Shown: positions 1,934 to 59,294, counted from the first letter of the stretch. The stretch is 64,000 nt of DNA from a virus (IMGVR_UViG_3300047548_001036:1-64000); one strand, 5' to 3'. Made by a program: numbers and translations. Notes: generated from the letters alone by a model not told the origin.

Positions 1934-1991
1934 CACGCTCAGTTTGCGCACATACAATAGACACACGTTAACAACACACAGGAATAGACGC

Positions 1992-43289: not shown

Positions 43290-44114
43290 ATGAAAACAAG
43301 AGTATTAGTTACAGGACACGATGGCTTTATAGGCCGCAACATGACAAGTTGGTTAGACCAACAAGGCTACCTAGTAGATGGATGGGAATGGGACCCAGAC
43401 ACATTCCCCAATGTAGAAAGCTATGATTGGGTTATACATCTAGGTGCCATTACAGATTCCACAGTGCGCGATGTTGATGCAGTTATGAGACAGAACTTTG
43501 AGTTTAGTCAGCGATTGTTCAACGAATGCAACGCACATGGCACGCATTTTCAGTATGCCAGTACAAGTAGTGTTTACGGAAATACTAAAGATTTTTCTGA
43601 AACAGCACCATGTTTTCCTCAGAGTCCGTACGCATGGAGCAAATACTTGTTCGACCGCTGGGTGTTTCAACAACCACATAACATAATGGTTCAGGGTTTC
43701 CGATATTTCAACGTCTATGGTAAATGGATGCATTTAAGAAAAGGACGAACAAACTTTATATACCGATGCCGTCAACAAGCAAAGAAGCAGGGCTATATCG
43801 AAGTTTGGGAAGGTGCAGAGCATGTGCGCAGGGACTGGACCTGGGTCGGCGACCTATGTCGCTTACATACAGATTTTATTGAATCAGTGGTGGGCAGTGG
43901 TATCTGGAACGTGGGAACGGGACTTTCCCATAGCTTTCTAGACATTGCAGAAACGATTGCAGAACAAGAAGGTGTAGAAATTCGAGAAGTGCCTGTTCCG
44001 GACGAAGAACGAGCCAAATGGAGACAAAGCACCTGTGCCAACCTTAAACATTTAAAAGAAACTGTGGGCAAACGCCCCTGGCTTAATGTTTATGAATGGT
44101 TAGAAAAAGAATAA
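43290..44114 (+). CDS. NAD-dependent epimerase/dehydratase (SDR family; ADP-heptose-6-epimerase / UDP-sugar epimerase-like)
   Basis: N-terminal Rossmann VLVTGHDGFIGRN; size 274 aa. Confidence 0.55.
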   Translation: MKTRVLVTGHDGFIGRNMTSWLDQQGYLVDGWEWDPDTFPNVESYDWVIHLGAITDSTVRDVDAVMRQNFEFSQRLFNECNAHGTHFQYASTSSVYGNTKDFSETAPCFPQSPYAWSKYLFDRWVFQQPHNIMVQGFRYFNVYGKWMHLRKGRTNFIYRCRQQAKKQGYIEVWEGAEHVRRDWTWVGDLCRLHTDFIESVVGSGIWNVGTGLSHSFLDIAETIAEQEGVEIREVPVPDEERAKWRQSTCANLKHLKETVGKRPWLNVYEWLEKE

Positions 44115-44125
44115 ATATTAATACT

Positions 44126-44374
44126 ATGCTAATACACGAATTTATTAATCAACAAGATATCGACGACTTAGACGAAAAGGCCAGTCGAGCACTATGCCTA
44201 AGTACCAAATCAAACAAATCACTGGGTGCAAGTAATTTATCCAGTTGTAAAGCACAAGGCCTACGCTCACGCGAGGGTAAAAAGAAATACAAGATAGGAA
44301 AGAAGAACATCTCAGTTGGTGGACAAAAGGTCAAGGGCGAAAAATATGGTGGCCCAATTCATGATTATGGTTGA
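44126..44374 (+). CDS. hypothetical basic protein (start uncertain)
   Basis: ORF 44096-44374. Confidence 0.3.
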   Translation: MLIHEFINQQDIDDLDEKASRALCLSTKSNKSLGASNLSSCKAQGLRSREGKKKYKIGKKNISVGGQKVKGEKYGGPIHDYG

Positions 44375-44392
44375 TCCACAAGATAGTTAAAA

Positions 44393-45349
44393 ATGAAAGC
44401 TAGAGAATTTTTAAAAGAAGCTAAATCAGCCAAGTATAACAACTTGGCTATGAAGTATGCCTTTAATGATAATGCTTTAATATTGAAGGCATTTTCTAAA
44501 GAAGGCCCGTTAGCTTTCGCCAAATTTCTAAAAGAAGATCAGAATCTTTATCCACAACATCTATTTGTACATGATGACCATCAAAACAAAGGTATTGCTA
44601 AAGCAATGTATGACTATCTAAAGAGTGAAGGTTATACCATTCATAGAAGTCATGATCAAACTAAGGCAGGTGCTGGGTTTTGGGATAATCATCGTGGTAA
44701 AGGGTCGTCAGTTTGGGAAGAAGCTGCACTAGGTGAAGCTCCATTGCCCGCGGACTGGGATCCTGCGCAATATCGGCCAGGCACCACATTCAAGGATCGC
44801 CTAGCTTATGCTTTAGAAAGAGCAAAAAAGCTAGGAACTGGATCCAGTCGAGTTGCCACCATTATTGAATATCAAGGTCGTCCTACAGTGTTAAAGATTG
44901 CAAAAAATCGAAAAGGACTGGCACAAAACTCTGTAGAAGCCAGCATATTAGAGGATTGGTATGCCAAGAAACTGGATATCCTAATCCCTCTGATTGATTA
45001 CGACGAGCAAAATCAAGACCCCACGTGGATTCACACCGAAGTAGCAAATAAAGCTACTGAAAGGCAGTTGTGCAACCTTATGAAATGCGATAACTTAAGT
45101 CAGCTGGTTAATATGTCGAGTTCTATCGCAAAAAGGAAAATGTTTCAAGATCATTTTAGATCCAAAGGCCGAAGTGAAGAGGATATTGAAATCGTCAGTG
45201 AATATGCTGACAAGTTATACGAGCTGTATACAAATTTCGATGTAGAATTAGTGGACATGATCGGCGCCCGTAATTGGGGCATCTACAATGGCAAGCCAGT
45301 TATAATCGATATTGGGTTTAATACCGATGTAATGAAAAGGTTTTATTAA
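44393..45349 (+). CDS. putative capsid-packaged internal protein: CTS-like N-terminus MKAREFLKEA, GNAT-like segment, unknown C-terminal domain
   Basis: N-terminus matches T4 IP capsid-targeting sequence pattern MK..EF(I/L).EA; QNKGIAKAMYDY resembles GNAT motif A. Confidence 0.5.
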   Translation: MKAREFLKEAKSAKYNNLAMKYAFNDNALILKAFSKEGPLAFAKFLKEDQNLYPQHLFVHDDHQNKGIAKAMYDYLKSEGYTIHRSHDQTKAGAGFWDNHRGKGSSVWEEAALGEAPLPADWDPAQYRPGTTFKDRLAYALERAKKLGTGSSRVATIIEYQGRPTVLKIAKNRKGLAQNSVEASILEDWYAKKLDILIPLIDYDEQNQDPTWIHTEVANKATERQLCNLMKCDNLSQLVNMSSSIAKRKMFQDHFRSKGRSEEDIEIVSEYADKLYELYTNFDVELVDMIGARNWGIYNGKPVIIDIGFNTDVMKRFY

Positions 45350-46207
45350 ATGAGAGCTAGAGAATTTTTAAGAGAAGCACCTAACCCTGCAGCAACTGCT
45401 ACAGCACCAGTGACACCAAAACCAGGTGCATTTAGCGTAGATGTGCCACAGGGCAGGCGAGGGGTTGAAGTTGCAGATTTACAAAAAGCTCTGATAGCAT
45501 TAGGTTATCAGCTGCCCAAGCACGGTGTTGATGGTATACGTGGTCCGGAAACTAGCGCAGCCGTAAAACAATTTCAACAAGACACCCAGTTAAACACAGA
45601 TGGAATTCCTGGACCAGAAACCATTGATAAACTTAATGATGTCTTAGCATCTAAGCCTAACATTACTGCTACTCTTAAAAAGAGTCTGCCCGCAGAAGTA
45701 AAAGCACCTGCTGCTAGTAGCTCGAACATTGATACCACACACATTCAAGATCCTACGTTTAATGGAAAGCTTAAGAAAATTGCAGATGACCTTGGAGTTA
45801 AATCTTCGGACCTGATTGCCATAATGAAACTGGAATCGGGTGTGAATCCTAAAGCAGTTAACTCTATGTCTGGTGCAACAGGACTTATACAGTTTATGCC
45901 TAAAACGGCACAGTCCCTAGGCACAACTACACAAGCACTGTATAGTATGTCTGCTGTAGACCAACTCGATTATGTCTACAAATACTTTAAAATGGTAGGT
46001 GTTAAGCCAGGTATGACCTTACAGGATTTATACATGGCAGTGTTTATGCCTGCAGCAATGGGCAAGGGCCCCGACCATGTGTTGGGGCAAAAAGATGCGC
46101 CTGGTTTTGCCGGCAAAGTGTACGCACAAAACGCAGGCCTAGACAAAAATCGGGACGGAACAATAACTGTTGCAGATGCAACTCAATCGGTATCAAAATT
46201 TGCATGA
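45350..46207 (+). CDS. peptidoglycan-binding + lytic transglycosylase (SLT-like) protein with CTS-like N-terminus MRAREFLREA
   Basis: PG_binding_1-like LQKALIALGY...DGIRGPETSAAVKQFQ; SLT motif ESGVNPKAVNSMSGATGLIQFMPKTA. Confidence 0.6.
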   Translation: MRAREFLREAPNPAATATAPVTPKPGAFSVDVPQGRRGVEVADLQKALIALGYQLPKHGVDGIRGPETSAAVKQFQQDTQLNTDGIPGPETIDKLNDVLASKPNITATLKKSLPAEVKAPAASSSNIDTTHIQDPTFNGKLKKIADDLGVKSSDLIAIMKLESGVNPKAVNSMSGATGLIQFMPKTAQSLGTTTQALYSMSAVDQLDYVYKYFKMVGVKPGMTLQDLYMAVFMPAAMGKGPDHVLGQKDAPGFAGKVYAQNAGLDKNRDGTITVADATQSVSKFA

Positions 46208-46755
46208 AACATCTTATAGGAAACTTACTTATCTCTCCTCCTAGCATTGACCATGGATTCTTTCAGAAAAGCGTTATACTGCTAACTGAAGATCACTCCG
46301 GAGGCAATGTAGGAGTCGTATTGAACAAAACTAGCAAAGTAAGTTTAAACGAGTTTGCAAAGCATAATAATGTTATATTAGATGTGCCAGGGTATGCACA
46401 TATAGGAGGACCAGTAAACCCAAAAGCGTTGACCATGATTCACACCAATGATTGGGCTTGTTCGAATACTATGCGTATCAATGATTTGTTCAGTATTAGT
46501 AGCAGCCCTGATATATTTAATTACTTGGCCAATGGATATTGTCCGGAACATTGGAGGATATTTGTTGGTTTGTGTAAATGGACTCCGGGACAGTTATCAA
46601 AAGAGGTTAATGGGTTACCTCCATATGAACATAAGTCTAGCTGGTTAACCGCAACCGCGGACTTGGATATTGTGTTCGAAACAGATGCCGATGACCAGTG
46701 GAGTGAATCCATAGAAAGATCAGGTTCTGAATTCGCTCAAAACCTCTTTGAATAA
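46204..46755 (+). CDS. YqgE/AlgH family (DUF179/UPF0301) protein
   Basis: GNLLISPPSIDHGFFQKSVILLTEDHSGGNVGVVLNK matches YqgE/AlgH N-terminal signature. Confidence 0.6.
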   Translation: MKHLIGNLLISPPSIDHGFFQKSVILLTEDHSGGNVGVVLNKTSKVSLNEFAKHNNVILDVPGYAHIGGPVNPKALTMIHTNDWACSNTMRINDLFSISSSPDIFNYLANGYCPEHWRIFVGLCKWTPGQLSKEVNGLPPYEHKSSWLTATADLDIVFETDADDQWSESIERSGSEFAQNLFE

Positions 46756-46811
46756 ATACTAATCTATCGTATAATGTAGTAGTTACAGTACTACACACGC
46801 AGAGCATTATT

Positions 46812-47327
46812 ATGAGCGATACACTTTTACTAAATTCGGATGCGCAGCCTGTCAGCTGGTTACCACTTAGCACATTGACATGGCAAGATGCCATTAAGTA
46901 CATGATTCTTGAAAAAGCTCGTGTAGTTGAATGGCATGAAAATTGGATAGTACATTCTGCCAGTTGGGAAACTCAGGTCCCGGCAGTTATGATGTTAACT
47001 GAATACATGAAACCAAAAACTGCAGTTAGATTTTCCAAGTCTAATGTGTTTTTACGAGATCAGTACACCTGCGCTTACTGCGGATCTAAACTAGAAAAGG
47101 GCGTATGCACATTAGATCATATTTTACCTAGTAGCCATGGTGGACGTACTACGTTCGAAAATTGCGTAACTGCATGTTCGCCGTGTAACGCACGAAAAGG
47201 AAACAATAAGAAGATTGTTCCCAAGTTTAAGCCGCACAAACCTGATTTTTGGGAATTGGTGCACAAACGCAAGCTGCAACCGTTTCATGTCAAACATCCA
47301 AGTTGGTTTGACTACATACAAGTATGA
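46812..47327 (+). CDS. HNH endonuclease
   Basis: CAYCGSKL...LDHILPSSHGGRTTFENCVTACSPCNARKGN. Confidence 0.7.
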   Translation: MSDTLLLNSDAQPVSWLPLSTLTWQDAIKYMILEKARVVEWHENWIVHSASWETQVPAVMMLTEYMKPKTAVRFSKSNVFLRDQYTCAYCGSKLEKGVCTLDHILPSSHGGRTTFENCVTACSPCNARKGNNKKIVPKFKPHKPDFWELVHKRKLQPFHVKHPSWFDYIQV

Positions 47328-47734
47328 AGCAATTTTTATGGAAACTGTTGGGCTTTGCTAGTCTGTGTCTGGCATACATTGGGTTGATTACTCCGGGCTT
47401 GCCTTACTCGCCGTTTATTGTATTTGCTGCCTATTGCTTTTCAAAAGGGAGCCCGCGTATGCATGCCTGGATTTACAATCACAAGGTATTTGGGCCATTT
47501 CTAACAAACTGGACCGAAAAACGAGTGTTCCCCATACGTATGAAATTCTTCATGCTGGCCATGATGACTACCAGTTTAATCATCATGTTTAGCAGCGGAG
47601 TTAAACTCATAGGTGTTATTTCTACTGCAATTTTCATGGCACTGGTTGCTATCTGGGCCTGGAGATTCCCCAGCAGTGTGACCGAACATGAACGTAGAAT
47701 TGCACAAGGTAAAAAGATCGGTTGGTTTAAATAA
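47324..47734 (+). CDS. YbaN-like inner membrane protein (DUF454)
   Basis: [50 protein letters not shown]. Confidence 0.55.
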
Positions 47735-48914
47735 TTGCTTTCAGTGCATTTATTAAATCTTCAATCATACCATCTGTATGCATAGGGGTAGGAACTAATC
47801 TTAAACGTTCAGTTCCTACATCTACTGTTGGTGAATTTATAGCCTGAACATATATGCTATACTCATTTAACAATATATCACTGAACTCCTTAGTCTTAAA
47901 CGCATCACCTATCAATATGGGAACGATATGCGTATTGCTAGGCATAAACGGCAACCCTGCTTTATCTAATAAGTACTTGAGTTTTTGGACTCTACCCTGA
48001 TGCTCTTCTCTAAGACTGTTGTGTTCTTTTAGATATCTTACAGACGCCAATGCCCCTGCACACAACACGGGACTAAGACTGGTTGTAAAAATAAACCCTG
48101 CTGCAATACTACGAATTGCATCAATAACTACAGAATCTGCAGCAATGTATCCCCCCTGAACACCAAATGCCTTACCCAAGGTGCCGTTTACAATATCAAC
48201 ACGATCTTGTAATCCTAGTTTCTCTAATTTGCCGGCGCCTGTTCCTCCATACAGTCCAACGGCGTGGACTTCGTCGATGTAAGTCATAGCCTGGTATTGA
48301 TCTGCAAGGTCGCAAATTTCACGAATCTTGCTGACATCACCGTCCATGGAATAGACGCTTTCAAACACCACACATGGTGTTTTTCCTTGCTCTCGACTAC
48401 GTCGTAAACACGATTCTAGATCATCTAAGTCATTGTGAATAAAAACTTGTTTTGCAGCCTGGCTATGTTTAATGCCTACGATTATACTGTTATGATTTTT
48501 ACTATCACTGATAAATTCGATGTTAGGGATTATTTTGGACAATGCAATCATAGTCCATTCATTGGCCACATAGGCACTGCTGAACAACAGTGCTCGATTT
48601 TTCTTGTGTAATGTAGCAAGCTCATGTTCTAATGCTACATGATAATGAGTGGTTCCAGATATATTACGTGTGCCACCACTGCCTGCACCAGTCATATCAA
48701 TCGCGGTATGCATGGCATCAAGTACAACTTTATGCTGCCCCATGCCCAAATAATCATTACTGCACCAGTTTACGATGTTCTTAATAGCGTATGGTCCGTA
48801 CCAAATTGAATTAGGAAACTTCCCACTTTCTCGCAATATGTTGTTAAAAACCCTGTATTTGCCCTGCTGTTTTAAGTCAGTGATAACATTTTGAAATATA
48901 CTTCGGTCTATCAT
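47727..48914 (-). CDS. hemA: 5-aminolevulinate synthase (PLP-dependent alpha-oxoamine synthase family)
   Basis: KYRVFNNI...[12 protein letters not shown]...[13 protein letters not shown]...ELATLHKK and PLP-lysine region TLGKAFG. Confidence 0.75.
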
Positions 48915-49572: not shown

Positions 49573-50910
49573 ATGACCCAACTTGCACCTCCGAAGATTT
49601 TAAAAATAAATGTAACTAGATTGGATCCACTCGATGCATATGGATCTGAACCGTTTGCATCTCAGCCATGGAAATTCAGAGTTAGGTTATTAGTAGAACC
49701 ACAGATACACAGTGATTTACGAACCCCTAGACCTGGAATATATAACGGATTTGATGTAGTACCTGGCAATTTTATTTCTACTCAACGATCAAAAATTTTA
49801 AAAATTGATCAAATAGAATCACAAACTGCTGACCAGCTAATTTGTATATGCTCAGATACTAATCGTATAAACTCCAGCATTGACGAAAACCAAACTGGCG
49901 AAAGTGCAATTGAAACAGGATACGGGTTACTATTTACCGCAACTAAAGGTGTTCCGGTATTATTCCCATTACCAGGTAATATACAAGGTATCAGCACCAG
50001 CGATTTAATTGGAATCATTGGTAGATTCTTCTACTCCGATGCATCTGGATTTGCAGAAGGCGTATTAGGTTACACCGGATCTCAAGGCTATAGAGGATAT
50101 ACTGGCAGTAGAGGCCCATCGGGTACCAATATTGTTGTAAAAGGAAACGTACCTACTGCAAGTGATTTGCCTCCTACTGGAAATGCAGTCAACGATTCAT
50201 ATTTTGCTGATGACACCAAAGAACTATGGATATGGAGTAGTGCTGGCAACTGGTATAGTGCGGGACGTATCGTAGGCCCAACAGGTGACGTAGGATATAC
50301 CGGATCCGCTGGATACACGGGTAGTCAGGGTATTTCTGGATACACGGGTAGCCAAGGCCTACCTGGAGATCAAGGTGGCATCGGGTTTACTGGAAGTCAG
50401 GGCTATGTAGGTAGTCGAGGTGTCGAAGGCCCCGCTGGGCCTATCGGATATGCTGGTAGCCAAGGTGAAACTGGTTACGTCGGTAGTCGAGGACTACAAG
50501 GGTTCCGTGGAGAGTTAGGATATACTGGTAGCCAAGGTCCACAAGGTGCACCGGGAACGGCTGGTGGTACAGGGGCGTCTGGTTACACAGGTAGTCAAGG
50601 TATACAAGGATTTGCAGGTCCATCAGGCTACGCAGGTAGTCGAGGGTCCTTAGGATACACGGGATCGATTGGATATACCGGTAGTACTGGGATAATGGGG
50701 TACACCGGTAGCACGGGCGGGGATGGCGCAGATGGATATACCGGTAGCCGAGGATATACCGGTAGTAATGGACCAAATGCGATTGGACAGGCGACAATTA
50801 GCCAGGTACAAGCAGAAAACGGGGCAGTTTTGGTATATTCTGCTCAAGTCAACGAGTGGGCACCAAAAGTAACGCTTGATGCTCAAATCGTAGAAGGCGG
50901 GTTTTTTTAA
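49573..50910 (+). CDS. collagen-like repeat tail fiber protein
   Basis: ~30 GYTGSxG / G-X-Y repeats (GYTGSQGYRGYTGSRGPSG...). Confidence 0.65.
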   Translation: MTQLAPPKILKINVTRLDPLDAYGSEPFASQPWKFRVRLLVEPQIHSDLRTPRPGIYNGFDVVPGNFISTQRSKILKIDQIESQTADQLICICSDTNRINSSIDENQTGESAIETGYGLLFTATKGVPVLFPLPGNIQGISTSDLIGIIGRFFYSDASGFAEGVLGYTGSQGYRGYTGSRGPSGTNIVVKGNVPTASDLPPTGNAVNDSYFADDTKELWIWSSAGNWYSAGRIVGPTGDVGYTGSAGYTGSQGISGYTGSQGLPGDQGGIGFTGSQGYVGSRGVEGPAGPIGYAGSQGETGYVGSRGLQGFRGELGYTGSQGPQGAPGTAGGTGASGYTGSQGIQGFAGPSGYAGSRGSLGYTGSIGYTGSTGIMGYTGSTGGDGADGYTGSRGYTGSNGPNAIGQATISQVQAENGAVLVYSAQVNEWAPKVTLDAQIVEGGFF

Positions 50911-50938: not shown

Positions 50939-53713
50939 ATGGCATCAGAAATTAGAATCAAACGGTCAGGTAATACAGTTGTACCAACCAGTTTAAAACC
51001 AGGAGAATTGGCGTATTCTTGGGCGAACGGGGCAGATAAACTTTATATAGGTTGGGGTACTGACCAAAATGGAAATTCAACAGATATAGTATCGATTGGT
51101 GGTAAATTTTTCACCGACATGTTGGATCATACTGCAGGTACACTCACTGCTAGTTCGGCAATCATAGTCGATTCCAACAGTAAAATTGATCAGCTATTAG
51201 TTGATAACTTAAAACTTGATGCCAATACATTAAGCAGCACTGACACCAACGGTAATATACTAATTTCTCCCGACGGTACCGGGTATGTTCAAATTGTTGG
51301 TACAAACGGGCTAGTCCTTCCTGTAGGAACTACTGCACAACAAGGTCCTGCAGTTACTGGTGCTGTTCGTTTCAACTCAACCACAAGTCAGTACGAAGGG
51401 TATAACGGTACTAATTGGGCGTCACTGGGTGGAGTTCGATCAGTTGATGGGTTAACTTACATAACTGCAGAATCTACACCTGGTGCATCAAACGACACCA
51501 TAAGTTTCTATACCGCCGACAGTGCTACTACAACCACGTTAGCAGCCACACTAACCGCAACATCGCTAGATATTAATCTTACTACTGATTCTACATCCAC
51601 TTCATCTGGTGCATTGATTGTTGACGGTGGCGCCGGAATTGCTAAGAACTTATATGTGGGTGGTGATCTAAGGGCCCTAGGGGACACTTACCTAGGTGAT
51701 TCAACAACAGATAGCCTACTAGTTACTGGAGACGTAACTGTTAGCTTGCCTGACAATACATCAATTGCACTTGATATTAAACAAGGTGACGACTCATATA
51801 TCAAGGTTGTAACTACTGATGATGCTGAGAAAGTTGTTTTTGGTACTATTACAGATGTAAACATTGCTAGCACCACAGCCGCAACAAGTACGACAACTGG
51901 CGCGTTGACAGTTGCGGGGGGTGTGGGAATTGCCGGTGCATTATATGTCGCCGGTGCAATTAGTGCTGAATCCGCAACATTCGATTCCATCAATGCTACA
52001 CCAATTGGAAACGTAACACCCGACACTGGTGCATTTACTGTTCTTAATGTTGATAATCTTCAACTCGATGATAGCACTCTTAGTTCAACTAACGTTAATG
52101 GTGACATTAACATTACGCCTAATGGAACTGGTAAGCTAGTATTAGCTAATCCTTACGTTGGTACAGACTCTTTACAAGAATATATTGAAGATAGTGTTAA
52201 TTCGTTAGTTGCAGCTGGTGAAGGCATTGATGTTACCTATGATGACGTTAACGGCACCTTAACAATTGATGCTGAAATTGCAACAACTACCAATCGAGGT
52301 GTTGCATCGTTTGCTGACGCAGATTTTAATGTAACAGACGGCGCTGTTGAATTAAAAGATACTGTTGTTAAAGGATTCACAGTTGACGCCGACGCAGTAG
52401 TTACTCCTTCCGGCCACTCTGTTAAGATTACTGGCGGAGAAGGCATTGATGTCACTGTAGACGGTGCTGTAATTACCGTTGCAGGCGAAGATGCAACCAC
52501 TACCAATAAGGGCGTTGCATCGTTTGATACTGCTAACTTTACTGTAACCAACGGTGCTGTTTCAACAAAAGACATTACATTAGGTACATCAACATTAACT
52601 AACGGCTCAACCACACTTAGTTTATCTGGACTACAATCTCTCGCTGTCGATAACTTAACTATTGATGGTAACGAAATTAGTTCTAGTAACGCTAATGGTA
52701 ACATTAGCTTAAATCCAAATGGCACTGGTACAGTTGATGTTAACGGCGCAAGAATTACAACACTTGCTACTCCAGTTGACGGGACAGATGCTGCTACTAA
52801 GGCATATGTTGACTCTGTAGCAAATGGATTAGATGTTAAACAGTCAGTTCGCGTAGCAACAACTTCCGTATTAACTGCTACATACAGCAACGGTACCAAC
52901 GGCGAAGGCGCCACATTAACAAACGCAGGATCGCAAGCGGCGCTGGTACTTGATGGAGTCAGTGTTGTTCAAGGTGACCGTGTCTTAGTTAAAGATCAAA
53001 CGACGGCGTTACAGAACGGTATTTACGTTGTCACTACTGTTGGTTCAGGAAGTACTAACTGGGTATTAACACGAGCAACTGACTTTGATAACAGCCCAGG
53101 AACAGAAGTTACTGCAGGCGTATTTACCTTCGTTGAAGAAGGTACTAGCCTACAAGACAATGGATATGTTGTTACAACAAATGGTCCAGTTGTAATTGGC
53201 ACAACAGACATCGTTTGGAATCAGTTCTCGGGTGCTGGTCAAATCGATGCAGGTGATGCGTTAACCAAGACTGGAAACAGACTAGACGTTGTCGTTGCTG
53301 CTAGTGGCGGTATCGAAATTTCTGGTGATGCTTTACAACTAAAATCAAGTGTTGCTGGAGCAGGGTTAACATACACCTCAGGCGTTATAAATGTTGTTGG
53401 TACAACAGATCGAATTACCGTTAACGCTGACTCCATTGATATTGCTAGTACATACGTAGGTCAAACCAGCATAACAACTTTGGGAACAATTACAACAGGT
53501 GTTTGGAATGGCACAACTGTAACGGTTCCATACGGCGGTACTGGAGTAACTTCGTTTACAACTAACGGCATAGTCTATGGTAATGGGTCCGGAGCACTAC
53601 AAGTTACTGCAGCAGGAACCTGGGATTCTACACATAGCGTGGGACAACTATTAAGCGTAAATAGCAGCGGAGTTCCTACATGGACTAACATCATAGATGG
53701 CGGAACATTCTAA
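50939..53713 (+). CDS. large tail fiber protein (924 aa)
   Basis: N-terminal IKRS...GELAYSWANGADKLYIG tail-fiber motif; RFNSTTSQYEGYNGTNWASLGG repeat; Thr/Gly/Ala-rich beta-rich repeats. Confidence 0.7.
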   Translation: MASEIRIKRSGNTVVPTSLKPGELAYSWANGADKLYIGWGTDQNGNSTDIVSIGGKFFTDMLDHTAGTLTASSAIIVDSNSKIDQLLVDNLKLDANTLSSTDTNGNILISPDGTGYVQIVGTNGLVLPVGTTAQQGPAVTGAVRFNSTTSQYEGYNGTNWASLGGVRSVDGLTYITAESTPGASNDTISFYTADSATTTTLAATLTATSLDINLTTDSTSTSSGALIVDGGAGIAKNLYVGGDLRALGDTYLGDSTTDSLLVTGDVTVSLPDNTSIALDIKQGDDSYIKVVTTDDAEKVVFGTITDVNIASTTAATSTTTGALTVAGGVGIAGALYVAGAISAESATFDSINATPIGNVTPDTGAFTVLNVDNLQLDDSTLSSTNVNGDINITPNGTGKLVLANPYVGTDSLQEYIEDSVNSLVAAGEGIDVTYDDVNGTLTIDAEIATTTNRGVASFADADFNVTDGAVELKDTVVKGFTVDADAVVTPSGHSVKITGGEGIDVTVDGAVITVAGEDATTTNKGVASFDTANFTVTNGAVSTKDITLGTSTLTNGSTTLSLSGLQSLAVDNLTIDGNEISSSNANGNISLNPNGTGTVDVNGARITTLATPVDGTDAATKAYVDSVANGLDVKQSVRVATTSVLTATYSNGTNGEGATLTNAGSQAALVLDGVSVVQGDRVLVKDQTTALQNGIYVVTTVGSGSTNWVLTRATDFDNSPGTEVTAGVFTFVEEGTSLQDNGYVVTTNGPVVIGTTDIVWNQFSGAGQIDAGDALTKTGNRLDVVVAASGGIEISGDALQLKSSVAGAGLTYTSGVINVVGTTDRITVNADSIDIASTYVGQTSITTLGTITTGVWNGTTVTVPYGGTGVTSFTTNGIVYGNGSGALQVTAAGTWDSTHSVGQLLSVNSSGVPTWTNIIDGGTF

Positions 53714-53720
53714 CTAATGT

Positions 53721-53748
53721 AAAATAAAAAAAGCGGGCAAGGCCCGCT
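53721..53748. terminator. bidirectional rho-independent terminator between convergent genes
   Basis: A7-GCGGGCAAGGCCCGC-T7. Confidence 0.8.
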
Positions 53749-53752
53749 TTTT

Positions 53753-55012
53753 TTATCTCCTGCTAAAATGATAGTCGCCGTCAGGACCATTATCGCAAAA
53801 CGGTCCTGACAGGAAATTAAATCCTAGGGATAGCACATATCTAATTACTTCATCCCTTAACGGTGCGCCTTTATTGTACTCTACCGCTTGCAACTCGAGT
53901 ATTAAATCAGTGCAATGCCTTAGACATTCTGTTGCACCCATTAAGACATCAAGTTCGGCCCCTTGTACATCCATTTTAATTAAATTTGGCATGGGCAGAC
54001 CTTTTTGTTTGACCACAGTATCAAGTGTCATGGCAGTAACAGTTCTTTTATGTTTTTCATTAAACAGCTCTTTAGCAGCCGGACTTAATTCTACGTTTTC
54101 TCTGTAATAACTGTTTCCTCCCGGATGTTCAGTATTTTGATAAAACTCTAGTGTTCTTCCATCATAGTTACTGAGCACTCCAATCGCGTAGTCAAGTCCC
54201 TTTTCCTTATATAAGGACTCGACTTCTGGCATAGCCTCAAATGCTATAAATTTAGCATCGGGCCATATCGCACTAGCTTCATTGGTCCAATGTAATACAC
54301 ATGCACCTATGTCGTAAATTACATTGGGCGTTACTTGATGACTCAAGGCTTTTAAATAATCCACATGAGTCTGAGGTAACAGGCGCCGACTGCCTAATTC
54401 CTTAAGGTGTTGTTGAACAGTGGGTGTTGGATTGTCATCAACTACAAACACGCTACTTCCATGATGCCCGCAATGTATGCTGGTATCTGCAAATATCTTA
54501 TATCCTTTTTCTTTTGCACGCAAGCAAAAATAAGTATCTTCGCTAACAGTATTTGCATGGTCTATGGCGGACTTATAAACAAACTGAGGATACCCAATAT
54601 CTCTAATCACTTGGCTTTTAACCAACACACATCCAAATCCACAGCCATCAACTTCAACCAGACCTTTTCCTTTAATACTATTATAAGATATGTTAATTCC
54701 ATTATTATAAAGTTCAAGAATGTGCTGCCCGGGTTTCCTTTGAATATACAGGCCTGAAACTACGTCTTTGTCATGTGCCAATAATTTCTTTAACGTATCG
54801 GGCTTAAATGATATGTCACTATCTACACTGAACAAATAATCATACTTTTCAGCCCAATGTGCAATTAAATTTCTAATCTGATCAACTTGATCCGAAACAA
54901 AAGGTTGGAATGTTAAATTATGTCCGGCCGGAACTTCTAAGTCATATATGCTTTTAAATGTTTCTGGTTCAACGTACTTATCAGTTGGGACTGCGATTAA
55001 AATTGTTTTCAT
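53753..55012 (-). CDS. bifunctional glycosyltransferase (DxD, GT2-like) / FkbM-family methyltransferase
   Basis: N-terminal domain with DSD; C-terminal VIYDIGACVLHW...MDVQGAELDVL (FkbM-like). Confidence 0.55.
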   Translation of the reverse strand: MKTILIAVPTDKYVEPETFKSIYDLEVPAGHNLTFQPFVSDQVDQIRNLIAHWAEKYDYLFSVDSDISFKPDTLKKLLAHDKDVVSGLYIQRKPGQHILELYNNGINISYNSIKGKGLVEVDGCGFGCVLVKSQVIRDIGYPQFVYKSAIDHANTVSEDTYFCLRAKEKGYKIFADTSIHCGHHGSSVFVVDDNPTPTVQQHLKELGSRRLLPQTHVDYLKALSHQVTPNVIYDIGACVLHWTNEASAIWPDAKFIAFEAMPEVESLYKEKGLDYAIGVLSNYDGRTLEFYQNTEHPGGNSYYRENVELSPAAKELFNEKHKRTVTAMTLDTVVKQKGLPMPNLIKMDVQGAELDVLMGATECLRHCTDLILELQAVEYNKGAPLRDEVIRYVLSLGFNFLSGPFCDNGPDGDYHFSRR

Positions 55013-55070
55013 GGTATATTTGCAATAAAAATTAACTTTTGATAAATATATTTATCAAAAGGAGATTCTA

Positions 55071-56087
55071 ATGGATTATATTCCCTATACATATCTCATA
55101 GGATGGTCAAAATTAAACAAATGGTATTACGGAGTTGAGTACGGAATTAAAAAAATTCCTTGTGCAAATCCAAAAAACTTATGGACCACATACTTTACTT
55201 CTTCGAACATAGTTTCTCACTTTCGAAAAACCCACGGAGAACCAGATATTATTCAGGTAAGAAAACTTTTTTCTAAAGGGCCTCTAGAAGAAAGGATGGA
55301 AATGTCTATAAATTGGGAGAAGAAAGTTTTATCGAAAATTAACATTGGAGATGAAAAGTGGATTAATGGAAGAATTGGGGGCAATATTTGCCCTTCTGCT
55401 AATAAAAAAATTGCTAGACTTCGATACGGAGTCGATAATGTTTTTCAAGCAGAAGAAATAAAGAAAAAAATAAAAGAAAGAAATTTAAAAAAATTTGGAG
55501 TTGAACACCCGTCATACTCGACAGTTTTATTAGACAAGAAAAAGAAAAATAATATTGAAAAATACGGAATCACTTGTAATTTGAGTTTTTCTTCTGTGAG
55601 AGAGAAAGCAAAAGAATCGCTTCGAACAGAAGAGGTTAAAAAGAAAAGAAAAGAAACTATTAAAAGTAGATACGGGGTCGAACACCTAACACAATCCAAC
55701 GACATTAAAGCGCGTGTACTTGCAACTCGTAGCATTTTATCAGAAAGACCTAATGTTAAACTTATAAAAGAATATCAAAGAGTTTTTAATATAACATTGA
55801 CTAGCGGTTGGTATCAAGGATCAGATGAAAAATTAATCTTAATACTACAAGAAATACATTCCATGTATGGAGTATACTCTTATAGTGAGTTGTCTGAAAT
55901 TGCGTTACCTAAAAAATATTCATCTTCTATAAAAGAATTACAAGAGAGACCTATTGTGAAAAAAATTAAACAATATAAAGATACATACGGTAGAAAAATT
56001 AAAATAGGTCGCTCATGGGATAGAAAATCTGAAGAGTATCTTATTGAAGTTTTAAGTATGCTGGAAAAAACGTACGGACTACTTTAA
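55071..56087 (+). CDS. GIY-YIG homing endonuclease-like protein with K-rich repeated (K/R)YGVEHP modules
   Basis: YTYLIGWSKLNKWYYGVEYG ... SHFRKTHGE ... EERMEMSINWEKK ... NGRIGG; four YGV(E/D)(H/N) repeats; very AT-rich. Confidence 0.5.
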   Translation: MDYIPYTYLIGWSKLNKWYYGVEYGIKKIPCANPKNLWTTYFTSSNIVSHFRKTHGEPDIIQVRKLFSKGPLEERMEMSINWEKKVLSKINIGDEKWINGRIGGNICPSANKKIARLRYGVDNVFQAEEIKKKIKERNLKKFGVEHPSYSTVLLDKKKKNNIEKYGITCNLSFSSVREKAKESLRTEEVKKKRKETIKSRYGVEHLTQSNDIKARVLATRSILSERPNVKLIKEYQRVFNITLTSGWYQGSDEKLILILQEIHSMYGVYSYSELSEIALPKKYSSSIKELQERPIVKKIKQYKDTYGRKIKIGRSWDRKSEEYLIEVLSMLEKTYGLL

Positions 56088-59000
56088 AATTCTGTCTTTA
56101 TACGTGGCTAAATAAGAAACGCTAGCACCTGCAGTTTTAGCTCGTTCTACAAAATCTAGTTCTTCAATTTTTTCAGATTCTAAAGGTTGAAAGTGTGGGT
56201 AATTTAAAAGATTAACAAAAACTGTTTGTTTAATAAACAAACAAGACATGTTATCTAATAATACTATATCTTTATTCTTAGCTAACATATCTATTAAGAG
56301 AGATTTATCTAATATTGTATCTCTTTTTAAAAGAAGCGTATAATCATAATGTTGAGCCCAATGCGCAATTAAGTTTCTAATCTGAGACCTAGAATATCCG
56401 TAGAAGTACTGAAAGTGTGTTTTATATCCTTCAGGAACTTCTAAGTCGTAAACACTTTTAAAAGTTTCAGGTTCAATGTACTTATTTGTTGGGATTGCAA
56501 TTAGTATTTGCTTTTCTCTATTGGTATGAGATGTAGTAGTTTTTTGAGTGTGAACCACGGGCGCGTCCTTGTTGATGTTTTCCGAGAGTTTTGCAGACCA
56601 ATCTTGATAAAATGGAAGTTCTTTTTCGTAATATCCGCCGGTAATAGATTTATCACTTGAGGTTTGCGCCATTGGAGATTCAAATCTGGTATTATAAATC
56701 ATAATAGGTGCAGCCTTTCTAGTCACAGAGCAATGAAAGATAAAGTCATCACCAAAGTAAATTTCCAACTCTGGAATAATAGGAACCCAGTCGGACTTGT
56801 GCATGAACATTAGTTGTCCAAAACAATGGATAATATCTCCAGGTTTCCATTCAATGAAGTCTATGGAAAAGTCTGTGCTTGCTGGCTGATTGAAATGTGC
56901 TTCTCCAGTTATTAACCCGTGAACAGGAGAACCTGGCTGTATCCTAGATTCCAACTTAGAGAATACTGCAGGATCCACCCAAATATCATCGTTAGCAATG
57001 CATAACTTGTCGTATGTTGACAGAGCGACACCGAGATTCCATGCAGGATTAACTTTAATGTTTGTTGTCTGGTTAATCATTCGTATTTTAGTATTCTGCA
57101 AAATATCCCAGTCTGGTGTTTTTGCAACATCGTTATTGATAAGAATGATTTCCCCAACGAGATCCTGTCCAATATAACTTCTTAGAGCTTTGTCCATTAC
57201 CGGCAATGCTCTCCACATAGTGGGAATAATTACTGAAAATTTATTTTTCAGAGTCTTTTGTTCAAGTATGGCATTGGCATTCCGTGTTTGTTCAACTCCA
57301 TTAACTTTATAGTCGTTTAATGGGTTGATGTCATTGTAATTGTAAACCACATCTTGAACCACTTTAACTTTATCAGGATCAGCTTTCTCAATTAGTGAAT
57401 AGAAAACCGCACCATCACCTCCGGCTTTGTACCAATTTCCATATTGATCTTTAAATACAGATTCATCGACCCCATCAAGCAATGATGCTTTAAATGTACG
57501 TAGATGCGTATAAGGCATATTCCAGTTAAACTTATGGGTTCTGTAAGATTTATTAGCTTTAACAGATTTTGGATAGGGTTGCGCTACTAATGGAATTTTA
57601 TCTGCCTGGCTCCAACAACTTCCGTAGCTGAACTCAGTGGTTCCGTCATACAAATTATTGTAGTAATGGAATATTTGATTGCTATTAACTAGGCTATCAT
57701 CACCATCTAACAGCATAATAATATCTTCAGGGTTGCAATATTTTTTAATTGTGGTTATTTGATTGTAAACTGCTCCGCGATTTTCTGTATTTTTAAGTAC
57801 TTGTATCTTATCTCGAAAATGTAAGGGAACAGACTCAATTGCAGTTTCAAATGTAGAATCTGTACTGGCATCATCAATGATAAACATCTCCCAGTTGTCA
57901 TAATCTTGTATTACCACGCTGGCAATACATTTGGCTATATACCTCTCAGCATTATATACTGGTGTTATGATCTTAATTGCTTTCTCTTTGGTGCGTGGGA
58001 TATACCTTTCTTCTTTATTAGAGAATCGTCGACCAAATACTTGTTGCACTCGATTATTAATTTTGGATACAGCTCGATACTCGTGAACTGGTAAGTATTG
58101 TCCCAGTATACGATACAGGTGCTGTTTCCATTGCAGGGCAACGGTATCCCAGGTGGATATGTCTTTTACTATGTTACAATAGTATTGCTTCTGTTGAAGC
58201 AAATATCTATCAGAACTGGCACGCAGAGTTAAATCGACAAACTTGTCAACTTGTGCAGAAGCATTGATTCCGGGGAATAACCCGTTTGGTTCTATTGCAT
58301 AATCTATTAGATAGCAGGCTTGGGTGACTGCAGTTTCTTCTAATGCACCAAACCGAGTGGTAATTAACGGAGTATTGTAAATTAAGGATTCTAAAGAACT
58401 GATGCCAAATGTTTCCGGAAATGCACCAGGGTAAATTGTAAAACTAGCATTTGAAAGTATTTCTGCTATTTCACTTTGCTTGATTACACCAGTAAACTCT
58501 ATATCTAAGTCTCTGTATTTAGGATCATCAACCATGGAACGCCAAGTTTTTTCTTGTTCGTCTGGTTCGGCGTTTTCTCTAAAACGGTAGTATCCGCCGA
58601 TAACTTTCAGCTTTGCTTGCGGGATGTGTTCTTTGACTTTTGGCCAAATAGAATTTACCAAAGGTAGCATGCCCTTGGTAACAGACGCATTATAAACATA
58701 TAGATAAGGATCTTTTGCAGCAATATCCACCTCGTCTTTGTAGTTGACTATACCATTGCGAGTCATGAAAACATTATTTTTAAGAACTTCAAACATTCTA
58801 CGTTTTCCGTGATCACAATTAGTAACATAACTTGTGTGGAAGTCGCTCAGCGTAAACAGTTCGTTAATGTCTTTATTGACCACTAGGTCTTCTAGCAGGT
58901 GATCTCCCTTACAAAAGGTATCATGCATCCAGACTGCTCTATACTTTGCAGATGTTTTTATTTTTTGGTATCGCTGTGGATTATATCCTGCAAATTCAGA

Positions 59001-59294
59001 ATATAGTTGTGGTGTCAGGAACGGGATCACAGTTCGAGAACTGATAACAACATCATAGACAAAACTATTAGGACTGTCTAACTCTGTATGATCTCTATAG
59101 GTAACTCCGTCATAGACACCCGGGACTGCTTCAGAATCGATGCAGTTATTAAACACGGTCACCTTAAACCCCAGTTTTGCTAATTCTTTACTCATTAGGA
59201 TAACAGCAGATTCAGACCCACCTAATCCTCTTTTTGATAGGGTTGTGCCATCATAGGTTAACCCGATTACATCAATAATTGCTATGGAAATCAT
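56079..59294 (-). CDS. multidomain glycosyltransferase (GT4/GT1-like + two GT2-like modules + degenerate copy of the neighbouring GT N-domain), 1071 aa
   Basis: FPETFGISSLESLIYNTPLITTRFG (GT1/4); IITPVYNAERYIAKCIASVVIQDYDNWEMFIIDDASTD (GT2); FSVIIPTMWRALP...; C-term LIAIPTNKYIEPETFKSVYDLEVPEGY. Confidence 0.65.
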   Translation of the reverse strand: MISIAIIDVIGLTYDGTTLSKRGLGGSESAVILMSKELAKLGFKVTVFNNCIDSEAVPGVYDGVTYRDHTELDSPNSFVYDVVISSRTVIPFLTPQLYSEFAGYNPQRYQKIKTSAKYRAVWMHDTFCKGDHLLEDLVVNKDINELFTLSDFHTSYVTNCDHGKRRMFEVLKNNVFMTRNGIVNYKDEVDIAAKDPYLYVYNASVTKGMLPLVNSIWPKVKEHIPQAKLKVIGGYYRFRENAEPDEQEKTWRSMVDDPKYRDLDIEFTGVIKQSEIAEILSNASFTIYPGAFPETFGISSLESLIYNTPLITTRFGALEETAVTQACYLIDYAIEPNGLFPGINASAQVDKFVDLTLRASSDRYLLQQKQYYCNIVKDISTWDTVALQWKQHLYRILGQYLPVHEYRAVSKINNRVQQVFGRRFSNKEERYIPRTKEKAIKIITPVYNAERYIAKCIASVVIQDYDNWEMFIIDDASTDSTFETAIESVPLHFRDKIQVLKNTENRGAVYNQITTIKKYCNPEDIIMLLDGDDSLVNSNQIFHYYNNLYDGTTEFSYGSCWSQADKIPLVAQPYPKSVKANKSYRTHKFNWNMPYTHLRTFKASLLDGVDESVFKDQYGNWYKAGGDGAVFYSLIEKADPDKVKVVQDVVYNYNDINPLNDYKVNGVEQTRNANAILEQKTLKNKFSVIIPTMWRALPVMDKALRSYIGQDLVGEIILINNDVAKTPDWDILQNTKIRMINQTTNIKVNPAWNLGVALSTYDKLCIANDDIWVDPAVFSKLESRIQPGSPVHGLITGEAHFNQPASTDFSIDFIEWKPGDIIHCFGQLMFMHKSDWVPIIPELEIYFGDDFIFHCSVTRKAAPIMIYNTRFESPMAQTSSDKSITGGYYEKELPFYQDWSAKLSENINKDAPVVHTQKTTTSHTNREKQILIAIPTNKYIEPETFKSVYDLEVPEGYKTHFQYFYGYSRSQIRNLIAHWAQHYDYTLLLKRDTILDKSLLIDMLAKNKDIVLLDNMSCLFIKQTVFVNLLNYPHFQPLESEKIEELDFVERAKTAGASVSYLATYKDRILK

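What the first reader, a model, noticed from the sequence alone, without database searches (positions are those of the whole stretch)
53753..59294. Glycosylation locus inside the tail-fiber cluster: 1071-aa four-module glycosyltransferase, GT/FkbM-methyltransferase fusion, AT-rich GIY-YIG endonuclease gene between paralogous domain copies
Two minus-strand enzymes lie between tail-fiber genes. The 1071-aa protein has a GT1/4-like module, two GT2-like modules (IITPVYNAERYI...IIDDASTD; FSVIIPTMWRALP) and a C-terminal copy of the LIA(V/I)PT(D/N)KY(V/I)EPETFKS(I/V)YDLEVP domain. That domain also forms the N-terminus of the downstream 419-aa GT-FkbM fusion. In the 419-aa protein it retains a DSD motif, while the copy on the 1071-aa protein has KRD and is probably inactive. 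A + strand, AT- and Lys-rich GIY-YIG-like ORF (55071-56087) with four (K/R)YGVEHP-type repeats sits exactly between the two homologous copies. It looks like a homing endonuclease that inserted at, or promoted, a duplication junction. With the epimerase at 43290-44114 this argues for phage-directed glycan synthesis. The target could be virion fibre glycosylation, DNA hypermodification or host surface polysaccharide remodelling.
Basis: partly seen in the sequence, partly recalled or inferred. Interest (0 to 1): 0.65.

Follow-up and report, generated by a model that had tools for sequence, protein, structure and literature searches.

The report
Mobile endonuclease cassette splits glycosylation gene
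The two sugar-adding enzymes are the two halves of one multi-domain phage gene, cut in two by a selfish endonuclease cassette that carries spare copies of the domain it interrupts, so that both halves stay intact open reading frames.

Summary
I found a 1071-aa GT4+GT2+GT2+degenerate-GT-A protein, a 419-aa GT-A+FkbM protein, and an AT-rich antisense GIY-YIG gene between two paralogous GT-A copies.

In most relatives the two enzymes are one uninterrupted gene of 1105-1586 aa, or a tight operon. Those relatives have no endonuclease and no second GT-A copy.

The same arrangement [..M4'] – endonuclease – [M4..] recurs in a minority of alleles (about 2-4% of family clusters). At least 12 non-identical endonuclease-bearing loci were read, in at least four well-supported host-gene lineages and several domain architectures. 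M4' is the upstream pseudo-copy; M4 is the catalytic downstream copy.

- M4' always lacks the DxD motif and forms one clade (bootstrap 99).
- Its first 41 codons follow the host-gene lineage.
- Cassette-specific sequence starts at SR(S/T/P)Q.
- The downstream catalytic copy always has a scrambled FQYFYGY segment.

A near-identical relative (L101) has lost 958 bp of the endonuclease gene between two 9-bp repeats but keeps M4'.

Best reading: a SegE-like homing-endonuclease cassette inserted at codon 41/42 of module 4. It carries a pseudo-remainder of the domain, a palindromic late-promoter pair, and a new 5' end for the catalytic domain.

The glycan target is unproven. I favour the collagen-like fibres.

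The parts
56079..59294 (-). Upstream half of the split gene (1071 aa): GT4 (GT-B, EX7E motif PETFGISSLE), GT2 module 2 (DDASTD / DGDD), GT2-like module 3 (NDD), linker, then pseudo-domain M4'.
   Evidence: Collinear and in frame with the N-terminal two-thirds of the single fused ORFs in 80 related loci.
56394..56516 (-). M4' segment a (aa 927-967, EKQILIAIPT...FQYFYGY). This is the host-derived first 41 codons of module 4, the left side of the insertion point.
   Evidence: 82% identical to own-lineage uninterrupted alleles against 69% to other M4' copies. The same pattern holds in L089 and L097; the rare FQYFWGY is shared only with the fused sister L074.
56082..56393 (-). M4' segment b (aa 968-1071, SRSQ...RILK). 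This cassette-borne degenerate remainder of the GT-A domain has KRD in place of DxD and a deletion of about 45 aa.
   Evidence: M4' is monophyletic at bootstrap 99. No DxD in any of 11 copies checked: 7 aligned alleles plus P0263-P0265 and P0269. 28.5% GC. No in-frame stops in 7 lineages against 8-15 in the other frames. AlphaFold pLDDT 93.7; top Foldseek hit STIV A197, E 7e-5.
55071..56087 (+). Free-standing SegE-type GIY-YIG endonuclease gene (338 aa) with a C-terminal DUF7487 helical-repeat domain. It is antisense to the split gene, and its 3' end overlaps the stop of the 1071-aa ORF by 9 nt.
   Evidence: Orthologues at 40-64% identity occupy the same site in L082-L086, L089-L097.
55036..55061 (.). 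Perfect 26-nt palindrome CTTTTGATAAATA|TATTTATCAAAAG holding two back-to-back ATAAATA late-promoter-like cores. One faces the endonuclease gene; the other faces the 419-aa gene.
   Evidence: An equivalent TAAATA..TATTTA inverted pair is present in L089, L091 and L094. ATAAATA occurs only 11 times in the window, and nearly all occurrences lie just upstream of gene starts.
55027..55035 (+). Left copy of the 9-bp direct repeat AAAAATTAA. It is one end-point of the 958-bp endonuclease deletion seen in relative L101.
55994..56002 (+). Right copy of the 9-bp direct repeat AAAAATTAA, inside the endonuclease ORF. It is the other end-point of the L101 deletion.
53753..55012 (-). Downstream half of the split gene (419 aa): catalytic GT-A module 4 (aa 1-195, DSD motif) fused to an FkbM-family methyltransferase (aa about 230-400).
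   Evidence: Collinear with the C-terminal third of the fused ORFs.
54884..55012 (-). New 5' end of module 4 (codons 1-43). It includes the HEG-allele-specific segment FQPFVSDQ, which replaces FQYF(Y/F)GY(N/Q) of uninterrupted alleles.
   Evidence: The segment is altered in every allele linked to the endonuclease and unaltered in all 34 fused alleles aligned.

Best explanation
The locus is one modular glycan-building gene: GT4 - GT2 - GT2 - GT-A - FkbM O-methyltransferase. It belongs to a T4-like phage and has been invaded by a mobile SegE-type GIY-YIG homing-endonuclease cassette.

The cassette sits inside the fourth module, between codon 41 (...FQYFYGY) and codon 42. From left to right on the gene's strand it carries:
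1. A degenerate remainder of the interrupted GT-A domain (SRSQ... to the stop, no DxD). This closes the upstream fragment as a folded pseudo-domain, M4'.
2. The endonuclease gene, antisense.
3. A palindromic pair of late-promoter-like elements.
4. A new start codon plus about 41-43 replacement codons, which restore a complete catalytic GT-A domain in front of the methyltransferase.

The insertion therefore splits the gene into two expressed proteins without removing any catalytic module.

The intact sequence around codons 35-46 of uninterrupted alleles is the likely recognition or cleavage region. It is broken in complementary ways in the two resident copies, which would make the carrier immune.

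Steps that are shown:
- The gene is uninterrupted in relatives.
- The cassette has the same position and anatomy in many lineages.
- M4' has a single origin, while the host gene is polyphyletic.
- The endonuclease has decayed in a sister genome.

Steps that are inferred:
- The endonuclease has nuclease activity.
- The target site lies at codons 35-46.
- Spread occurs by double-strand-break repair.
- M4' acts as a scaffold or docking domain.
- The enzymes build a short methyl-capped glycan on virion fibre proteins.
For: One gene in relatives:
- In all 80 best IMG/VR relatives, the homologues of the two ORFs form one ORF in one frame, 1105-1586 aa. None has the endonuclease.
- Other relatives are tight operons [GT4-GT2][M3][M4-MT] with 4-bp overlaps, and have no M4'.

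Recurrent cassette:
- Endonuclease orthologues at 40-64% identity lie at the same site with the same layout in L082-L086 and L089-L097.
- M4'-type proteins occur in at least five architectures, including stand-alone 135-145-aa ORFs.

Single origin against a polyphyletic host gene (bootstrapped NJ):
- M4' monophyly 99/100.
- Monophyly of endonuclease-bearing alleles 0/100.
- Window with fused L002/L003/L029: 100.
- L089 with fused L015/17/28/53/64: 99.
- L097 with fused L074: 100.

Mosaic boundaries:
- M4' residues 2-34 are closest to own-lineage intact alleles (77-82%).
- Residues 35-46 are closest to other M4' copies in two of the three lineages tested (82-83% against 64-72% to own-lineage fused alleles; L097 gives 71% against 75%). 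In the sequence itself the lineage signal runs through FQYF(Y/F/W)GY, and the cassette-specific SR(S/T/P)Q starts at codon 42 in every copy.
- In the downstream M4, only residues 35-46 deviate from the lineage.

Composition: M4'b is 28.5% GC and the endonuclease gene 31%, against 36-41% in the host modules.

Decay stage: L101 is 83-92% nt identical to the window. It lacks window 55036-55993 exactly, between two AAAAATTAA repeats. It keeps M4' and the last 32 endonuclease codons.

Promoters: ATAAATA is confined to gene-upstream positions in the window. The back-to-back pair is conserved in three other cassette-bearing loci, L089, L091 and L094.

M4' is maintained: no stops over 100-107 codons in 7 lineages, pN below pS, and a confident GT-A model.
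Against: - No activity data exist.
- The residue two positions after YYG is Arg in SegE-profile-positive relatives and Glu here. The canonical catalytic Arg is therefore not identified.
- Endonuclease divergence between lineages (43-77% identity) is about the same as host-gene divergence. An old, mostly vertical association cannot be excluded on distance alone.
- Trees are NJ on recombining sequences.
- Codons 2-34 of the downstream copy resemble the host lineage rather than a cassette lineage. This needs extra gene conversion between the two copies to explain. A 29/31-nt identical patch in the window shows such conversion happens.
- Synonymous sites are saturated, so the transfers cannot be dated.
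- All relatives are metagenomic contigs.
- The M4' structure model used an alignment dominated by catalytic M4 sequences.
- The glycan target rests only on gene neighbourhood.
Confidence: 0.72

Rival explanations
1. The split is old and inherited vertically. One ancient insertion and duplication happened in the ancestor of the family. The endonuclease is now a resident, possibly domesticated gene. The many uninterrupted alleles arose by repeated loss, for example by recombination between the direct repeats M4' and M4.
For: Endonuclease, M4' and host-gene divergences are of similar size. Orientation, overlap and layout are conserved down to 40% endonuclease identity. Loss does occur, as in L101.
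Against: The one observed loss leaves M4' and an endonuclease stub, not a clean fused gene. Fused alleles carry FQYF(Y/F)GY followed by N/Q-(I/V)-D-Q. That would require a crossover inside a window of 2-3 codons, repeated at least 3-4 times. M4' segment a follows the local host lineage in every background, including unfused operons. The cassette is present in only about 2-4% of family clusters.
Confidence: 0.17
2. The 338-aa protein is no longer a homing enzyme. It is a domesticated DNA-binding regulator or defence/anti-defence nuclease that controls the divergent late promoters. M4' is simply a useful non-catalytic subunit.
For: The Arg seen in SegE-type relatives is replaced by Glu. There is a perfect palindrome between the two divergent genes. 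I-TevI is known to autorepress through an operator at its own late promoter (cited in PMC12619734 and PMC10448857). The ORF is full length in many lineages.
Against: Y, Y, G, E and N of the GIY-YIG core are invariant across 53 sequences. The Glu variant is shared by a very large family with diverse DNA-binding tails, which argues for an active enzyme. The gene is dispensable, since it is deleted in L101. It is sporadic, which is the behaviour of a selfish element.
Confidence: 0.08
3. The enzymes do not decorate virion fibres. Instead they modify phage DNA with sugars or remodel host surface polysaccharide.
For: Phage GTs are known to hypermodify DNA and to alter O-antigens (reviewed in PMC12619734). 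The GT2 module resembles polysaccharide GTs such as TuaG, EpsE and WcaA.
Against: Neither protein has a transmembrane segment. Three to four different GT modules plus an O-methyltransferase in one polypeptide fits stepwise assembly of a capped oligosaccharide, as in PBCV-1 A064R (PMC9614988). The gene is embedded among collagen-like and fibre genes in the window and in many relatives. The 419-aa gene has a late-type promoter.
Confidence: 0.3

Closest known systems
Genes-in-pieces made by free-standing homing endonucleases in T4-like phages (mobE in Aeromonas phage Aeh1 nrdA; mobA in T4 gene 39/60; a seg gene in gene 43 of phage 25)
   Same: A free-standing endonuclease gene lies inside a gene that is contiguous in related phages. 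This yields two separately translated polypeptides (PMC2988022).
   Different: Those splits are simple cuts with no duplicated sequence. Here the insert carries a degenerate 3' remainder and a fresh 5' start of the interrupted domain, plus its own promoter pair. One complete catalytic domain is rebuilt and a pseudo-domain is left on the other fragment. The host gene is also a dispensable glycosylation gene, not a replication gene.
T4 Seg endonucleases (SegE-type GIY-YIG) and I-TevI
   Different: The tail is a DUF7487 helical KYGVEHP-repeat array, not NUMOD/zinc-finger/HTH. The gene is antisense to its host gene. The SegE-type Arg after YYG is Glu. No Pfam GIY-YIG hit on the protein itself.
Partial gene duplications next to homing-endonuclease ORFs in fungal mitochondrial genomes (atp6, cob C-terminal duplications)
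   Same: Endonuclease insertion is associated with a duplicated piece of the host gene, so that one complete copy survives (PMC6279837).
   Different: In mitochondria the displaced fragment is an untranslated relic. Here the displaced copy stays in frame, is kept open in all lineages, and is predicted to fold. The replaced part is the 5' end, with a promoter, rather than the 3' end.
Chlorovirus PBCV-1 A064R (and A111/114R) multidomain glycosyltransferases
   Same: Virus-encoded soluble protein with several GT domains and a terminal methyltransferase. It builds and methyl-caps a glycan on a virion protein (PMC9614988).
   Different: No sequence relationship was tested or claimed. The domain types differ: GT4 + GT2 + GT2 + A197-like GT-A + FkbM here. 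The substrate is unknown.
Non-catalytic GT-A domains paired with catalytic ones (human collagen galactosyltransferase COLGALT1 GT1 domain; LH3 accessory domain)
   Same: A GT-A fold domain without catalytic function that stabilises a catalytic partner (PMC12003778). COLGALT1 and LH3 are among the best structural matches of the M4' model.
   Different: The resemblance is at fold level only (E 3e-4, about 13% identity). M4' sits on a different polypeptide from its catalytic paralogue. Its role is inferred.

Membership tests
GIY-YIG nuclease superfamily (SegE-type) | GIY-YIG alpha/beta fold with the conserved Tyr, Tyr-Gly, Glu and Asn | tested here: met
GIY-YIG nuclease superfamily (SegE-type) | Conserved catalytic arginine | tested here: inconclusive
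   The position that is Arg in PF19835-positive relatives (YYGxR) is Glu in the window protein and its clade. R64 is nearly invariant and could substitute. No structural superposition of side chains was available.
GIY-YIG nuclease superfamily (SegE-type) | Direct profile match of the protein itself | tested here: not met
   No Pfam, NCBIfam or PDB sequence hit to a GIY-YIG family at E<=1 for the window protein. Only PHROG 'homing endonuclease' families matched, through the DUF7487 part.
Homing endonuclease gene (mobile, site-specific) | Presence/absence polymorphism at one fixed site among homologous genes, not following host-gene phylogeny | tested here: met
Homing endonuclease gene (mobile, site-specific) | Cleaves the endonuclease-free allele and is copied into it; the carrier allele is resistant | not testable with these tools
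   Only indirect evidence. Both resident copies differ from intact alleles within codons 35-46. In fused alleles this is the best-conserved DNA stretch of the first 52 codons.
Endonuclease-split 'genes in pieces' | The gene is contiguous in related genomes and interrupted only by the endonuclease gene | tested here: met
   Single ORFs of 1105-1586 aa in relatives, but with an added duplicated module not seen in the classical cases.
Endonuclease-split 'genes in pieces' | The two polypeptides reassemble into a working enzyme | not testable with these tools
   No complex prediction or experiment was possible.
GT-A glycosyltransferase (module 4 of the 419-aa protein) | Nucleotide-sugar-binding Rossmann-like fold with a DxD motif | tested here: met
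   DSD is conserved across the family. Sub-threshold GT-A Pfam hits, and PDB A197 at E 5e-3.
GT-A glycosyltransferase (M4' at the end of the 1071-aa protein) | DxD motif | tested here: not met
   KRD in the window. NRD, KQN, KPN, ERD, DKN and KNY in other alleles. Also absent in P0263-P0265 and P0269. The fold is predicted GT-A. It is therefore a pseudo-enzyme, not a catalytic member.
FkbM-family methyltransferase | Match to PF05050 / TIGR01444 above curated cut-offs | tested here: met
   59.1 bits against 22.7; 67.8 bits against 37.7.
GT4 (GT-B) and GT2 (GT-A) modules of the 1071-aa protein | Profile matches above cut-off and catalytic motifs (EX7E; DxD) | tested here: met
   PF13692 35 bits, PF00534 32.5 bits, PF00535 88 bits, and 26.1 bits for module 3. 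The motifs PETFGISSLE, DGDD and NDD can be read in the sequence.

The most novel reading that the evidence does not exclude
A 'self-patching' homing cassette. The endonuclease travels with a circularly permuted duplicate of the protein domain it interrupts, plus a bidirectional late promoter. Each homing event then converts a single multi-domain gene (or operon) into two expressed genes. It rebuilds the catalytic domain and leaves a selected pseudo-glycosyltransferase domain that may dock the two halves together. This would achieve at the DNA/domain level what introns and inteins achieve by splicing.
Probability: 0.4. Interest if true: 0.75.

Novelty: new variant of a known kind. Interest (0 to 1): 0.6.

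Why it matters
Free-standing homing endonucleases are usually thought to survive either in intergenic DNA or by crude gene splitting that the host enzyme happens to tolerate. This locus suggests a third route: the element carries duplicated pieces of its target domain and its own promoters, so insertion is nearly harmless.

All stages are visible in natural sequences, which makes the idea directly testable:
- empty sites in several architectures;
- occupied sites in at least four lineages;
- a decaying copy.

The locus also points to a candidate recognition site, and it supplies a natural example of a pseudo-glycosyltransferase domain kept under selection.

Separately, it flags a widespread family of four- to five-module GT-methyltransferase genes next to collagen-like fibre genes in T4-like aquatic phages. 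About 800 homologues scored E<=1e-30. These are candidates for virion glycosylation.

Tried and rejected
- Megablast of the 7-kb region against 50,697 phage records found nothing. tblastn found only distant single-domain hits.
- Sequence searches of the endonuclease against PDB, both single sequence and profile, gave nothing.
- I tested whether the two module-4 copies are each other's closest relatives, by protein identity and by shared synonymous codons. This was uninformative because the sites are saturated.
- dN/dS and dS comparisons to date cassette transfer were saturated and biased by AT content.
- A sigma-70 promoter and terminator scan showed no enrichment.
- A search of the window for a 2OG-Fe(II) hydroxylase, like those near the gene in L099 and L100, and for further copies of the endonuclease family, found none.
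- I considered that the window allele is a unique local accident. This is rejected.
- I considered that M4' is a truncated relic. This is rejected: it spans the whole domain with internal deletions and is kept open in all lineages.
- I considered that the cassette carries the whole of M4'. This is rejected because its first 41 codons follow the host lineage.

Full report
**What is in the window**

The three ORFs are exactly as described.

The 1071-aa minus-strand protein contains:
- a GT-B/GT4 module (Glycos_transf_1 / Glyco_trans_1_4, residues 193-323, with an EX7E motif);
- a strong GT2 module (residues 442-560, E 8e-25);
- a second GT2-like module 3 (about 689-790, 26.1 bits against a cut-off of 23.3, NDD motif);
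- a C-terminal 145 residues that match no glycosyltransferase profile.

The 419-aa protein is an FkbM-family methyltransferase (above both the Pfam and TIGRFAM cut-offs). It is preceded by a small GT-A domain whose only solved relative by sequence is STIV A197. I call this domain module 4, or M4.

Residues 928-1011 of the large protein are 55% identical to residues 2-85 of the small one (E 5e-25). I call this copy M4'. It has KRD where M4 has DSD.

Neither enzyme has a transmembrane segment.

The flanking genes match tail-fibre, baseplate and collagen-like families. The window also carries rIIA, rIIB, a gp5-like hub and a gp9/10-like protein, so this is a T4-like myovirus.

**The endonuclease**

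The + strand ORF (31% GC) hits only DUF7487 and PHROG 'homing endonuclease' families. It hits no GIY-YIG profile directly.

Evidence that it is nevertheless a GIY-YIG enzyme:
- It has 1834 homologues.
- In an alignment of 53, Y8, Y19, G21, E83 and N99 are invariant.
- 9 of 20 homologues match Pfam SegE_GIY-YIG.
- The C-terminal two-thirds is an array of helical KYGVEHP-type repeats.

One caveat: the Arg that follows YYG in SegE-positive relatives is Glu here.

**The two enzymes are one gene elsewhere**

A scan of viral contigs found 294 relatives of the 419-aa protein.

In all 80 loci kept, the homologues of both window proteins lie in one reading frame as a single ORF:
- 1105-1144 aa without module 3;
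- 1352-1414 aa with module 3;
- up to 1586 aa with extra modules.

None of these contains the endonuclease or a second module 4.

In the larger protein collection, many relatives are instead tight operons [GT4-GT2][M3][M4-MT] with 4-bp overlaps. These also lack both the endonuclease and M4'.

**The same insertion recurs**

Orthologues of the endonuclease (40-64% identity) always lie antisense between a GT gene that ends in an M4' and a gene that begins with M4. This holds in L082-L086 and L089-L097, from independent assemblies of 52-163-kb T4-like contigs.

Every M4' checked lacks DxD, shares FQ(Y/F)F(Y/W)GY-SR(S/T/P)Q, and carries the same deletion of about 45 residues.

M4'-type sequences make up about 5 of 241 family representatives. 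M4 copies with the cassette signature make up about 5 of the 120 best clusters. They occur behind short, long, double-GT4 and methyltransferase-containing architectures, and also as stand-alone 135-145-aa ORFs in operon-type backgrounds.

**Phylogeny and mosaic structure**

In bootstrapped NJ trees:
- M4' is monophyletic (99/100).
- Endonuclease-bearing alleles are never monophyletic for the GT, M4 or MT parts (0/100).
- The window groups with the fused alleles L002/L003/L029 (100).
- L089 groups with fused L015/17/28/53/64 (99).
- L097 groups with fused L074 (100).
- L091/92/95/96 form their own clade (100).

Segment analysis shows where ancestry switches:
- The first 41 codons of each M4' follow the local host lineage. 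L097 and its fused sister L074 alone share FQYFWGY.
- From SR(S/T/P)Q onward, the sequence is cassette-specific.
- In the downstream M4, only codons 35-46 deviate. Uninterrupted alleles have FQYF(Y/F)GY(N/Q) there. Cassette alleles have a related F-x-P-F-x-G-D-Q type segment. The association was perfect in all alleles examined.
- The rest of the downstream M4 follows the host lineage.

M4'b and the endonuclease gene are 28-31% GC, against 36-41% for the host modules.

I conclude that the mobile unit runs from codon 42 of M4' to about codon 43 of M4.

**Expression signals**

Between the endonuclease and the 419-aa gene lies a perfect 26-nt palindrome with two back-to-back ATAAATA cores.

ATAAATA occurs only 11 times in 64 kb. 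Almost every occurrence lies 12-75 nt upstream of a gene start in the right orientation. This makes it a credible T4-type late-promoter core.

The inverted pair is conserved in L089, L091 and L094. The cassette thus appears to bring a promoter for the downstream half. This is an inference.

**Decay**

L101, from another sample, is 83% (GT side) and 92% (M4-MT side) nt identical to the window. It lacks window 55036-55993 precisely, between two AAAAATTAA repeats. It retains M4' (KRD) and the last 32 codons of the endonuclease.

So loss happens by microhomology deletion and leaves a scar. This argues that clean uninterrupted alleles were never invaded.

**Is M4' junk?**

Its cassette-borne 100-107 codons have no stop in seven lineages, against 8-15 stops in each other frame. 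Its pN is 0.35-0.42, against 0.23-0.28 for M4 and the endonuclease, and remains below pS.

AlphaFold gives a compact GT-A core (pLDDT 93.7). Its best matches are STIV A197, then human collagen galactosyltransferase and LH3. The alignment used was dominated by catalytic M4 sequences.

I read M4' as a maintained pseudo-enzyme domain, possibly a scaffold or docking partner. A non-catalytic GT-A domain stabilises COLGALT1 in this way (PMC12003778).

**Mechanism proposed**

A SegE-like endonuclease recognises the conserved FQYFYGY-N(I/V)DQVRNLIA region of intact alleles. In fused alleles this is the best-conserved DNA of the first 52 codons.

Repair from a carrier genome copies in the cassette. The upstream fragment is closed by M4'b, and the catalytic domain is rebuilt downstream.

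Both resident copies are altered on complementary sides of the junction, which would protect the carrier.

Short gene-conversion patches between the copies exist (29/31 nt identical in the window), but they never restore the junction.

Activity, target and docking are inferred.

**Function of the enzymes**

Three catalytic GT modules of different families, a fourth A197-like GT-A, and an O-methyltransferase-type domain sit in one soluble protein. The gene is embedded among collagen-like (GYTGSx repeats) and fibre genes here and in relatives. In L096 it lies next to nucleotide-sugar genes.

This best fits stepwise synthesis of a short methyl-capped glycan on virion fibres, as with PBCV-1 A064R (PMC9614988). 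I give this roughly even odds. DNA or host-surface targets are not excluded.

**Comparison and novelty**

Endonuclease-split genes are known in T4-like phages (nrdA/mobE, 39-60/mobA, gene 43) but without duplication (PMC2988022). Partial host-gene duplications beside endonuclease ORFs are known in fungal mitochondria, as untranslated relics (PMC6279837).

What I found described nowhere is the combination seen here: a permuted duplicate of the interrupted domain, its own promoter pair, a selected pseudo-domain, and recurrence in several architectures. I file it as a new variant of a known kind.

Noticed in passing
window 43268, 46752, 48936(-), 48996, 50910, 55042, 55049(-), 59375, 62430: ATAAATA is rarer than chance (11 occurrences against 16 expected). 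It is almost exclusively placed 12-75 nt upstream of gene starts in the correct orientation, which makes it a likely T4-type late-promoter core. None lies upstream of the 1071-aa gene on its strand, so the two halves of the split gene may be timed differently.
   Followed up: partly
window 1869-4160 and 19193-20290: rIIA-like and rIIB-like genes are about 15 kb apart, separated by many small ORFs. In T4 they are adjacent.
   Followed up: no
window 43290-48914: Upstream of the fibre cluster lie an NAD epimerase/RmlD-like gene, a GNAT-like gene, a gp5-like hub lysozyme and a class I/II aminotransferase (minus strand, with its own ATAAATA). Some of these may feed sugar or amino-sugar precursors to the GT genes.
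   Followed up: partly
window 49573-50910: A collagen-like fibre protein with about 40 G-x-y triplets, dominated by GYT-GSQ/GSR. It lies in a locally GC-rich stretch (up to 55%). The Thr/Ser-rich triplets are plausible O-glycosylation sites.
   Followed up: no
L101:1-5088 versus window 53693-59159: Nucleotide identity to the window differs on the two sides of the endonuclease site: 83% over the GT gene and 92% over the M4-MT gene. This is expected if the site is a recombination boundary.
   Followed up: partly
L095:1791-3182 and L095:5809-5958 / L096:3723-3872: L095 has a second DUF7487-type protein (463 aa) inserted between the neck-protein and gp13 genes. L095 and L096 share a conserved 49-aa ORF between the endonuclease and the M4-MT gene.
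   Followed up: no
L092:5162-5752, L083, L093, L097:544-1146: In several cassette-bearing alleles the downstream gene is module 4 alone (196-200 aa). The FkbM methyltransferase part is missing from that gene.
   Followed up: no
L096:7500-9798; L099:10250-10798; L100:9917-10462: Relatives carry nucleotide-sugar genes (epimerase, cupin, PfkB kinase, cytidylyltransferase-like) directly next to the GT gene. Others carry a 2OG-Fe(II) oxygenase near it. The window has no homologue of the oxygenase.
   Followed up: partly
L023:9388-9998 and protein P0263: Some fused alleles contain an additional class-I methyltransferase-like domain inside the gene. This shows that the family shuffles modules freely.
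   Followed up: no
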